DNA of 64,000 nt, taken from an uncultured delta proteobacterium. Its GTDB lineage: Bacteria; Myxococcota_A; Polyangia; Haliangiales; Haliangiaceae. Location of the stretch: NCBI GenBank assembly GCA_963848295.1, contig CAWKDB010000002.1, forward strand, positions 1,216,001-1,280,000, read 5' to 3'. A program made the position numbers and the translations under genes. Below, piece after piece: positions 3,416 through 5,785 of this stretch (within the stretch, counting starts at the first letter, position 1; each line of letters opens with the position of its first letter). The notes beneath the pieces are model-generated. The model had not been told where the DNA came from and did not search any database. It saw nothing but the letters and a program-made list of their open reading frames with translations.

Positions 3416-4174
3416 ATGTCCGACCTGTTCGGCGACTGGCGGCTCGACGAGCTGATCGCGGTCGGAGGTCTCGGCGAAGTGTGGCGCGCGCACCGTGACG
3501 ATGCTAGCGCCGCGCTCAAGCGTCTTCACACGCACCTCGCGCGTCACGCCGAAGCGCGCGCGATGTTCGGGCTCGAGCAAGAGCTGGCGACGACGTTGCC
3601 GCGCCATCGCAACGTCGTGCACGCGATCGCGACCGGCGACGTCGCGAGCCGGCCGTACGTCGCGCTCGAGCTCGTGGACGGCCCGGATCTGCGCCGCCTG
3701 ACCGGAACGATCGCGGCGGAACGCGTCGTGCCGCTCGCGATCGAGGCGTGCGAGGCCGCGGCGCACCTGCACGCGCATGGCTGGATTCACGGCGATATCA
3801 ACCCGAGCAACTTGGTGCTCGGCGATCGGCTCGTGCTCGTCGACCTCGGCGTCGCGCGTCGCGCGGGTGAGGCCGGCGCGGTCCGCGGCACGCATGCGTA
3901 CATGGCGCCCGAGCAGGTGCGCGGCGAAGCCTGGACGCCGGCGACCGACGTGTTCGCGCTCGGCGTCGTCGCGTGGGAGCTCGCGAACCGCACGCGGCTG
4001 TTCCACCGCGGGCCGTCGTGGCTATCGGCGGCTGCCGTGGTCGAAGCCTCGCCGCCCGCGCTCGCCGACCCTGCGCTCGATGAGGTCGTGCAAGCGGCGC
4101 TCGCGAAGGATCCCGCGGCGCGCATCGCAACGGCCTCGGAGCTCGCTCGCCGCCTGCGAGAGCTCCTCGACTAG
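3416..4174 (+). CDS. Stand-alone Ser/Thr protein kinase domain protein (non-RD, HGD loop)
   Basis: GGLGEVW, AALKR, IHGDINPSN, DLG, YMAPEQ and DVFALG motifs in 252 aa. Confidence 0.9.
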   Translation: MSDLFGDWRLDELIAVGGLGEVWRAHRDDASAALKRLHTHLARHAEARAMFGLEQELATTLPRHRNVVHAIATGDVASRPYVALELVDGPDLRRLTGTIAAERVVPLAIEACEAAAHLHAHGWIHGDINPSNLVLGDRLVLVDLGVARRAGEAGAVRGTHAYMAPEQVRGEAWTPATDVFALGVVAWELANRTRLFHRGPSWLSAAAVVEASPPALADPALDEVVQAALAKDPAARIATASELARRLRELLD

Positions 4175-4245
4175 CTCGCCCTGCCGGGCCCCATCTCGCC
4201 AGCTTGCAGTTGGCCCGGCGCCCTTCACGCATCCGTGCCCGTACA

Positions 4246-4300
4246 CGTGGTCGTGGTCGTGCTCGTGCTCGTGCTCGTGCTCGTGCTCGTGCTCGTGCTC
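4246..4300. repeat. Hexamer microsatellite (CGTGGT)2(CGTGCT)7
   Basis: Read directly from the sequence. Confidence 0.95.
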
Positions 4301-4303
4301 GGC

Positions 4304-4537
4304 GAGATCGCGATCGCTTCGCGCGGCTGCCTTGCGAGGGCGCCCCGGACCCGCTCGGGCCACGGCGCTGAGCGTGGTGGTTCCGGCGCCTCCGCGGGGC
4401 GACGCCGCTGCGCGGCGATCGCGCTGCGCGCGAGTTGGCGTGTCGACCGCGTGGCCGCGCGTCTCATCGCGCGCCTGCCCTCGCTCCCCGGGGCATCCCT
4501 CGCGGCGACGCCGCGCTCAGCAGCGAGATCGCGAACG
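4304..4537 (+). repeat. Left arm of 234-bp inverted repeat (structured element)
   Basis: Ungapped manual alignment to the reverse complement of 5229-5462 gives 19 mismatches in 234 bp. Confidence 0.95.
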
Positions 4538-4546
4538 CGAGGCCGA

Positions 4547-4624
4547 GCGTCTCATCGCGCGCGTGCCTGCTCTCCGGGGCATCCCTCGCGGCGACGCCGC
4601 GCTCAGCGACGAGATCGCGAACGC
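4547..4624 (+). repeat. Extra direct copy of the 3' ~80 bp of the left arm
   Basis: Near-identical to 4459-4538 (GCGTCTCATCGCGCGC...GAGATCGCGAACGC). Confidence 0.9.
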
Positions 4625-4741
4625 TGGTCGCCAAACATACGGAGGGCGTGACCGCGTAGCTATGCCGCTCTGCAAGTCTCGCCAACAACGTATGAGCGGA
4701 GCCCCTCATGGCGGGACGATGGCGCTGCTATGGTCGCGAAG

Positions 4742-5056
4742 ATGTCGCCGACATGGATCGCCGAACAGCAGGTTGTCTTCCTGTATCCCGACGGACGGCG
4801 CAACGTCGGCCGGATCGCGGTGGGGATTCCCGTGCAGATCGACGCGCGTGAAGCGCACTGTGGGGTCGCGCTCGACGGATTCCACACGCCCCCTGGTCCG
4901 ATCGTCGGCGCGTCGACGCTGCAGGCGCTCTTGCTCGCGGCTCGGTTCCTGGGCATGCGGCTCCACGATTTCCGATCCAAGGGTGGTCGTGTACTCGATC
5001 CCGCGGACGATTCGGACGTGCCCTTGGACGCGCTGTTCGGCGTACTCCTCCAGTAG
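4742..5056 (+). CDS. Small hypothetical protein, DUF6968-like
   Basis: 104 aa from ATG 4742 (ORF open from 4730); pattern IAEQQVVF..GRIAVGIP..C..G.STLQALLLA resembles DUF6968 from memory; TGCTATGGT lies 7 nt upstream of the ATG. Confidence 0.7.
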   Translation: MSPTWIAEQQVVFLYPDGRRNVGRIAVGIPVQIDAREAHCGVALDGFHTPPGPIVGASTLQALLLAARFLGMRLHDFRSKGGRVLDPADDSDVPLDALFGVLLQ

Positions 5057-5110
5057 GCGCAGTCGACGACATCCCATGCCCGCCGCCGGGATCGGCGAGC
5101 GCACGAGGAA

Positions 5111-5166
5111 CTAGACCCAGTCGGGTCACACCCGGGGCAACCCGACTGGAGCTAGAACTAGGTTCT
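5111..5166. repeat. CTAG-bounded hairpin plus adjacent short palindrome
   Basis: CCAGTCGGGT (5117-5126) / ACCCGACTGG (5140-5149) flanked by CTAG at 5111 and 5152; AGAAC-TAG-GTTCT at 5154-5166. Confidence 0.75.
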
Positions 5167-5228
5167 CGAGGCCGCGCGCAGCCCGAGTCCGCTCGCGCGC
5201 GATTAACTCTAGAGCGTGATCTCGCGCC

Positions 5229-5462
5229 CGTTCGCGATCTCGTCGCTGAGCGCGGCGTCGCCGCGAGGGATGCCTCGGAGAGCGACGGCAGGCGCGCGAA
5301 GAGACGCTGGGCCACGCGGTCAACACGCCAACTCGCGCGCAGCGCGATCGCCGCGCAGCGGCGTCGCTCCGCGAAGACGCCGGAACCACCACGGCCAGCG
5401 CCGTCGCCGGAGCGGGTCCGAGGCACCCTCGCAAGGCAGCCGCGCGAAGCGTTCGCGATCTC
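5229..5462 (-). repeat. Right arm of 234-bp inverted repeat
   Basis: Reverse complement matches 4304-4537. Confidence 0.95.
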
Positions 5463-5554
5463 GATCTTCGCGAGTCGCGATCTCGCCAGAGCAAGCGTGC
5501 GAGCTGGGCGCCGGGCCCACTGCGAGTCTTCGAGGTGTGGCCCGGCGGCGCGGC

Positions 5555-5785
5555 CTAGGTAGCAGGCTTATCGGCATCGGCATCGGCGTCGTCACCGGAA
5601 GGAGCTGGAGCAGAGCCCTTCGCCGCGCGGCGGGCGGCCCGAGCCGTCTGCGCCGCGAGCCGTTCTTCTTCGCGGCGCTGCGCGAGATCGAAGTGGTTGC
5701 GCGCCGCGCGCGTGCCGAAGATGAAGCCGAGGAACATCCCGACCATCAACACGCCCGGGATGAAGATGACGTGCTCTGGCGTCAT
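5555..5785 (-). CDS. Small single-TM membrane protein, last gene of the ccm operon
   Basis: 76 aa MTPEHVIFIPGVLMVGMFLGFIFG...; ATGA overlap with the upstream stop. Confidence 0.75.
   Translation of the reverse strand: MTPEHVIFIPGVLMVGMFLGFIFGTRAARNHFDLAQRREEERLAAQTARAARRAAKGSAPAPSGDDADADADKPAT

What the first reader, a model, noticed from the sequence alone, without database searches (positions are those of the whole stretch)
4171..5558. Transposase-less cassette: long inverted arms around one cargo gene, inserted into an overlapped CTAG double stop codon
Seen: CTAG at 4171-4174 supplies the kinase stop (+) and CTAG at 5555-5558 supplies the stop of the last ccm-operon gene (-). Deleting 4175-5558 leaves two convergent genes sharing one CTAG, the same arrangement found intact at 63390-63393. 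Between the CTAGs are related outer hairpins (GCCGGGCC..GGCCCGGC at both ends), 234-bp inverted arms (4304-4537 / 5229-5462, 19 mismatches by hand) and one 104-aa DUF6968-like gene with its own promoter-like motif. Inference: this is a non-autonomous gene-carrying element (MITE pair or REPIN-like cassette) that targets CTAG double stops, a fitness-neutral site, and is mobilised in trans. It could also be an invertible segment.
Basis: partly seen in the sequence, partly recalled or inferred. Interest (0 to 1): 0.85.

Follow-up and report, generated by a model that had tools for sequence, protein, structure and literature searches.

The report
Hairpin-shelled cassette with swappable arms
The cassette is one copy of a small repeat family in soil myxobacteria that sits behind stop codons and wraps stray genes in folded DNA arms, and a sister species carries different arms and a flipped cargo gene at this same spot, so it is likely transposase-less selfish DNA whose inside is swapped by recombination.

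Summary
In detail: CTAG at both ends, two outer hairpins (A), 235-bp inverted arms (B, 19 mismatches), a 104-aa DUF6968-like gene. Relatives (Kofleriaceae) have the empty site, 2 of 19 as a CTAG double stop. A and B each have 13 copies genome-wide; 4 B pairs flank different cargo. B folds as a covarying rod and, in three other species, lies inside IS5/IS427-type elements with CTAG ends. But the cassette is not a fixed unit: the sister species has the same A shell here without CTAG, with different arms and the same cargo inverted. The A ends sit 0-28 nt from CTAG and match no transposase ends; no IS427 transposase or adjacent RAYT is in this genome. Best reading: a modular non-autonomous element, likely first placed at CTAG by a DDE transposase in trans, kept where harmless, then remodelled by recombination among copies. 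Enzyme unidentified; cargo transposition not shown. The scan's earlier notes describe similar nested CTAG elements on other DNA. New variant of a known kind; interest 0.5.

The parts
3416..4174 (+). Flanking Ser/Thr kinase gene; its TAG stop is the left CTAG
   Evidence: Pfam Pkinase E 6e-26
4171..4174 (.). Left CTAG (kinase stop; candidate 4-bp target duplication)
4183..4231 (+). Outer hairpin A, left; 8 nt from CTAG; 13 copies in the genome, found in 2 of 91 genus genomes
4232..4302 (+). Linker and (GTGCTC)n hexamer tract; orthologous tract present in the sister species
4303..4537 (+). Long arm B, left; covarying irregular rod
4538..4622 (+). Extra partial arm B (inner third); 96% like two distant copies, 90% like the adjacent arm
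4742..5056 (+). Cargo: 104-aa DUF6968-like gene (108 aa from ATG 4730); nomadic in the genus
5108..5158 (+). Separate nested remnant: 31 bp (5118-5148) matching the 3' tail of a group II intron plus the last bases of an IS4-type tip, between 10-bp direct repeats (8 of 10 alike) with a CTAG core
   Evidence: reading helped by notes
5229..5463 (-). Long arm B, right (inverted)
5498..5546 (-). Outer hairpin A, right; 8 nt from CTAG; orthologous A in the sister species
5555..5558 (.). Right CTAG (stop of the last ccm-operon gene)
5555..5785 (-). Flanking 76-aa gene closing the ccm operon (ccmC-like gene upstream, PF01578)

Best explanation
The stretch is one copy of a modular, transposase-less repeat element with a hairpin shell and long folded inner arms around a stray gene; it was likely first inserted at the shared CTAG by an IS5/IS427-type transposase acting in trans, likely kept because both stop codons survive a CTAG duplication, and its interior has since been swapped and flipped, likely by recombination between copies. 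Shown: copy numbers, empty sites, CTAG enrichment, arm B inside IS427-type elements of other species, different arms and inverted cargo in the sister species. Inferred: the enzyme, the 4-bp duplication as the insertion scar, selection for harmless sites, and recombination as the swapping route. How cargo first gets between the arms is not shown.
For: Empty site: kinase and ccm gene adjoin with no insert in 9 of 19 relative loci, 2 on a CTAG double stop and 1 on CTAA. CTAG lies within 28 nt of 9 of 13 A ends against 12% of stop codons (P 2e-6; ends of a pair are not independent). 3 of 5 A-A pairs have CTAG at both ends and all 3 reconstruct to double stops; a fourth site is an empty CTAG double stop in the sister species. 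B lies between the transposase stop and the right terminal repeat of IS427-type elements in G077, G062 and G073; in G077 and G062 it is the only B match; the G077 element has CTAG at both ends on a double stop; another G073 copy keeps IS-derived flanks without a transposase. Ten inverted B pairs within about 2 kb in 6 genomes all point outer ends outward, none the other way among the loci examined, some with an arm facing a gene start. Remodelling: sister G104 shares both A hairpins and the hexamer tract here but has arm J instead of B, and the cargo (85% identical over 240 ungapped nt, deleted) inverted; the partial arm is closer to distant copies than to its neighbour, and the two window arms are not each other's closest relatives. 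CTAG-duplicating IS5-related MITEs are known (PMC3189936, passages); inversion by recombination between terminal repeats is known (PMC3004938, abstract).
Against: A ends do not resemble the IS427 terminal repeat and lie at variable distance from CTAG (0-28 nt), unlike precise DDE ends. No IS427-type transposase in G000 (85% complete) or G104. The sister species' filled allele has CTGA and CTAT, not CTAG. Plain IS427 copies without B exist (G105, G098), and four-helix-bundle cassettes follow the same IS end in 4 other genomes, so B may be a passenger that inserted there by its own means. B also follows an IS4-type tip in G014. Other genes occupy the kinase-ccm gap without arms in 3 relatives, so the site takes genes anyway. 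Two empty or filled sites are not CTAG overlaps.
Confidence: 0.45

Rival explanations
1. A REPIN/BIME-like mosaic moved by a single-strand (HUH/RAYT) transposase: the A hairpins are REP-like ends, the enzyme cuts at CT at variable distance, and strand transfer builds and reshuffles A, B, J, C and hexamer modules.
For: Imprecise ends, partial duplications and collapsed single hairpins; placement behind stop codons as for GTAG REPs (PMC3733652, passages); RAYT cleaves CT 5' or 3' of the hairpin and creates BIME variability (PMC8266576, PMC3333891, passages); GCGNAGC triloop motifs 73 vs 15 on one strand of 32 non-independent B copies; about 10 RAYT-like genes in the genome; DUF6968 lies beside Y1 genes in G074 and G011.
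Against: No RAYT is flanked by A, B, C or J: nearest is 66 kb away and no profile hit under E 0.03 in their flanks. No fixed GTAG at the foot of the hairpin. Only 13 copies. Folding energy does not prefer either strand. CTAG at both ends on reconstructed double stops fits a staggered 4-bp cut better.
Confidence: 0.27
2. No cassette at all: polar repeats insert independently behind the stops of two convergent genes, which mimics inverted arms, and the cargo is an unrelated nomadic gene at an insertion hotspot.
For: 5 of 13 full arms are solitary; the window arms are closer to other copies than to each other; relatives carry other genes in this gap without arms; DUF6968 occurs in 17 of 91 genomes, mostly without these repeats.
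Against: 10 of 13 A copies are in inverted pairs; some pairs have one arm facing a gene start; one inverted pair within 2 kb has P about 0.01 by random placement, and there are 4 (the null ignores hotspots); both ends were remodelled together in the sister species.
Confidence: 0.17
3. B is a functional structured RNA or is copied through RNA (for example by the group II intron reverse transcriptase), with tandem-repeat tails and truncations as retroposition scars.
For: Covariation across species: 10 of 41 pairs change on both sides, above 500 of 500 shuffles and all slid controls (structure derived from the same alignment); B lies directly behind the transposase stop on its sense strand in three IS copies; group II intron fragments are in the genome.
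Against: No Rfam match to E 5; patchy presence, 13 of 147 genomes of the order; paired inverted layout is not expected from retroposition.
Confidence: 0.08
4. Assembly chimera of the inverted arm.
For: No read or contig spans the whole element.
Against: Arms differ at 19 positions; 3 other pairs in this genome and 6 in other genomes; exact short-read contigs over two inner junctions.
Confidence: 0.01

Closest known systems
IS5-related CTAG-duplicating MITEs (MITEPsy1; PMC3189936, passages read)
   Same: No transposase, multicopy, CTAG at the ends; arm B is found inside IS5/IS427-type elements of relatives.
   Different: Ends here are imperfect hairpins at variable distance from CTAG and match no IS terminal repeat; 1.4 kb with cargo and exchangeable arms.
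Composite non-autonomous transposons: TIME-COMP and mobile insertion cassettes (PMC4133298, passages read)
   Same: Two small repeats in inverted orientation flank unrelated cargo.
   Different: No cognate transposase identified; movement of cargo not shown; arms are folded rods that are replaced at a fixed site.
REPINs / BIMEs with RAYT (PMC3337134, PMC3333891, PMC8266576, PMC3733652; passages read)
   Same: Inverted imperfect hairpins behind stop codons, mosaic modules, locus-level polymorphism, collapse to single hairpins.
   Different: Low copy number, whole genes between the hairpins, 170-235-nt inner rods, no fixed GTAG, no RAYT flanked by the repeat.
IS inversion by recombination between terminal repeats (PMC3004938, abstract read)
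   Same: Interior flipped while the outer ends stay in place.
   Different: Here the inner arms were also exchanged for another module.

Membership tests
IS5/IS427-derived MITE or cassette | No transposase inside, several copies | tested here: met
IS5/IS427-derived MITE or cassette | Empty allele at the orthologous site | tested here: met
   9 of 19 relative loci; sister-species empty sites for other copies
IS5/IS427-derived MITE or cassette | Terminal inverted repeats matching a cognate IS | tested here: not met
   A ends differ from the IS427, IS1380 and IS4-type ends seen; met only by B copies of G073
IS5/IS427-derived MITE or cassette | 4-bp target duplication abutting the ends | tested here: inconclusive
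   CTAG both sides in 3 of 5 A pairs, but 0-28 nt from the hairpin, and absent in the sister allele
IS5/IS427-derived MITE or cassette | Cognate transposase in the genome | tested here: not met
   no PF13340 or tblastn hit in G000 (85% complete) or G104
Composite MITE transposon (TIME-COMP / MIC) | Two copies of a small repeat flank cargo | tested here: met
   4 pairs in G000, 6 in five other genomes
Composite MITE transposon (TIME-COMP / MIC) | Cargo moves with the arms to new sites | tested here: inconclusive
   only B followed by a 56% DUF6968 homologue at another site in G069
REPIN / BIME | Inverted imperfect palindromes in extragenic DNA behind stops | tested here: met
   10 of 13 A in inverted pairs; outer side faces a stop in most
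REPIN / BIME | Conserved tetranucleotide at a fixed place at the hairpin foot | tested here: not met
REPIN / BIME | RAYT gene flanked by the same repeat | tested here: not met
   nearest RAYT-like gene 66 kb away; no A/B/C/J in flanks; RAYT flanks in other genomes not scanned
REPIN / BIME | Strand-specific single-stranded fold recognised by the enzyme | tested here: inconclusive
   triloop motifs favour one strand, energies do not; binding not testable
Phase-variable invertible segment | Recombinase gene beside the segment | tested here: not met
   flanks are a kinase and ccm genes
Phase-variable invertible segment | Both orientations in one population | not testable with these tools
   only contigs, no raw or long reads were served; inversion seen only between species
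Known structured RNA (Rfam) | Match to a covariance model | tested here: not met
   0 matches to E 5
Integron cassette array | attC sites and IntI integrase | not tested
   no search run; inverted rather than tandem layout seen in the sequence

The most novel reading that the evidence does not exclude
A recombinase-free gene-exchange platform: fixed hairpin shells planted at CTAG double stops act as docking sites into which interchangeable folded arms (B, J, C) deliver, swap and invert cargo genes, while arm B spreads between species by riding inside IS427-type elements; its conserved rod is the substrate of an unidentified host or mobile enzyme.
Probability: 0.22. Interest if true: 0.75.

Novelty: new variant of a known kind. 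Interest (0 to 1): 0.5.

Why it matters
If right, it shows how non-autonomous repeats build neutral landing pads at overlapped stop codons and turn them into fast-changing gene slots in myxobacteria, linking DDE insertion sequences to REP/BIME-like mosaics. The covarying 225-nt rod, present both free and inside IS427-type elements, is a concrete substrate for finding the enzyme. If cargo does not move with the arms, it is an undescribed but ordinary repeat family.

Tried and rejected
RAYT beside the repeats: none. IS427 transposase in G000 or G104: none. The active IS1380 of G000 (6 copies, CTAG at both ends) as mobiliser: rejected, its ends differ from A and no IS1380 was found in G104's fragmented assembly. 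IS4-type 10-11-bp duplication at the window ends: absent in the sequence. Replichore bias of solitary arms: none apparent on 6 copies. Strand of folding by energy: undecided. Rfam: none. B pattern in viral contigs: 0; A pattern in metagenome contigs: 1 short contig. No RNA holder listed. 'Opposite strand' joints come most simply from other copies and were not used. Cargo fold: confident model (pLDDT 89), no Foldseek match, best Z 5.9 with dsRBD/HicB-like neighbours at Z 4-5: inconclusive. A genome-wide permissive profile scan timed out and was rerun on RAYT flanks and five other regions only. One off-by-one reconstruction (locus 5, minus strand) was disregarded; that site rests on the sister allele. 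Literature searches (listings only) returned no description of this family; subscription papers and supplements were not seen.

Full report
Observation. The sequence is as described. CTAG at 4171 ends the kinase and CTAG at 5555 ends the last ccm-operon gene; removing the insert leaves both stops on one CTAG. The arms are 4303-4537 and 5229-5463, 235 nt with 19 mismatches. The cargo is 104 aa from ATG 4742, with a weak DUF6968 match. The CTAG overlap at 63390 is ordinary: 62 of 1032 convergent pairs by my own gene caller. Records of relatives are titled Kofleriaceae.

A family in this genome. Arm B has 16 profile hits, 13 near full length; 8 of these form 4 inverted pairs around different cargo (this gene, two unannotated lipoprotein-like genes, a methyltransferase) and 5 are solitary. 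Outer hairpin A has 13 copies, 10 in inverted pairs, enclosing B, a third module C, or both; a fourth rod, J, lies inside an unpaired A. CTAG lies within 28 nt of 9 of 13 A ends, against 12% of stop codons; the distance varies from 0 to 28 nt. Three of 5 A pairs have CTAG at both ends and all three reconstruct to double stops; a fourth site is an empty CTAG double stop in the sister species. That is 4 of 8 A-bearing sites (P 7e-4 against convergent junctions), but against the 451 harmless convergent CTAGs the excess is weak (P 0.085 for 3 or more), so survival at harmless sites explains much of it.

Empty and filled sites. Of 19 relative loci with the kinase, 9 have the ccm gene adjoining with no insert (2 on CTAG, 1 on CTAA, others overlapping or 23-51 nt apart), 3 have 400-630 nt of other DNA between them, 5 show another neighbour and 2 are truncated. 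A occurs in only 2 of 91 genus genomes, G000 and its sister G104. In G104 this site is filled: both A hairpins and the hexamer tract are orthologous, but the kinase ends in TGA directly on A, the ccm side reads CTAT, the inner arms are J, and the DUF6968 gene is present, deleted, 85% identical and inverted. Of 15 sites compared between the two species, 6 are empty or nearly empty in one, 8 are occupied in both with only 2 keeping the same inner arm type, and 1 holds a different gene; four G000 sites were not compared. The window's arms are 91% alike but closer to other copies (93-95%), and the partial arm is 96% like two distant copies and 90% like its neighbour. So the shell is old and the interior is exchanged, which points to recombination among copies (inference).

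Arm B elsewhere. B matches 13 of 147 genomes of the order, 12 in this genus. It folds as a long interrupted rod: 10 of 41 consensus pairs change on both sides, above all shuffles and slid controls, though the structure came from the same 16 rows. GCGNAGC motifs are 73 on one strand and 15 on the other over 32 related copies, but energies favour neither strand. Ten inverted pairs within about 2 kb in 6 genomes all face outer ends outward; two direct tandems were also seen. In G077, G062 and G073, B lies between the transposase stop and the right terminal repeat of an IS5/IS427-type element; the G077 element has CTAG at both ends on a double stop, and is that genome's only B match. Against a simple origin: plain copies of this IS lack B, four-helix-bundle cassettes follow the same IS end in four other genomes, and in G014 B follows an IS4-type tip.

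The enzyme. No IS427-type transposase was found in G000 (85% complete) or G104. G000 has six near-identical IS1380 copies, all CTAG-flanked, one in the outer CTAG of another cassette, but their ends differ from A. About ten RAYT-like genes exist, none within 66 kb of a repeat. The mobiliser is therefore unidentified.

Mechanism. I commit, at 0.45, to insertion at CTAG by an IS5/IS427-type transposase in trans in an ancestor, retention where both stops survive, decay of the ends, and later swapping and inversion of the interior by recombination. A RAYT-driven REPIN/BIME-like mosaic (0.27) explains the ragged ends better and the two-sided CTAG worse. Independent insertions at a gene hotspot (0.17) is weakened by paired shells that face gene starts. 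The cargo is nomadic, in 17 of 91 genomes and mostly without these repeats; its fold is unassigned.

Comparison. It works like a composite MITE (PMC4133298, PMC3189936, passages) with BIME-like remodelling (PMC3333891, PMC3337134, PMC8266576, PMC3733652, passages) and repeat-mediated inversion (PMC3004938, abstract). It fails membership of both: no matching terminal repeat or transposase, no fixed guide tetranucleotide or flanked RAYT. Seven literature searches (listings only) showed no description of this family; supplements were not read. Family names such as IS427 subgroup, IS1380 and IS4-type are my labels from Pfam domains, layout and recall, not from an IS database. Earlier notes of this scan report similar nested hairpin elements at CTAG in other genomes and other hairpin families in this genome; they are unchecked leads.

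Verdict. Real, undescribed as far as searched, a new variant of known non-autonomous elements. The arm swap and cargo inversion inside a fixed shell, and the rod riding inside IS427, are the points of interest. Interest 0.5.

Noticed in passing
window 5108-5158: 31-bp collapsed remnant: group II intron 3' tail plus the last two bases of an IS4-type tip, self-complementary, between 10-bp direct repeats with a CTAG core.
   Followed up: partly
window about 1190-1370: A different repeat, in two tandem copies, between the acyl-CoA dehydrogenase and kinase genes (seen in ORF translations).
   Followed up: no
G000:C10:3301775-3303419 (L151, L164): One of six near-identical IS1380-family elements has inserted into the outer CTAG of another A-B cassette.
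   Followed up: yes
L123, L124, L272, L273: IS427-type transposase genes followed directly by four-helix-bundle cassettes in four genomes: the IS end collects several kinds of module.
   Followed up: partly
L243:1480-2535; L247:1501-2854: DUF6968 genes lie next to Y1/RAYT-like transposase genes in two genomes.
   Followed up: partly
G000:C10:2929057-2930200: A rRNA methyltransferase-like (KsgA-like, by eye) housekeeping gene is flanked by about 96-bp inverted repeats.
   Followed up: no
G000:C10:4725230-4725970 (L167): Cassette begins with a 25-nt copy of the far flank; the sister species keeps a 9-nt footprint between CTAG and TTAG.
   Followed up: partly
G000:C10:743880, C10:3301701, C11:395281: Three of four G000 cassettes pair one arm from a distinct subtype with one from the main type; the window's does not.
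   Followed up: partly
G000:C2:852058 and C10:2277503: Two 98% identical solitary arms share a 40-nt tail ending in a small inverted repeat resembling collapsed IS ends.
   Followed up: no
L090: Record titled Acidobacteriota falls in this Kofleriaceae genus by handle (G098): a likely mislabel.
   Followed up: no
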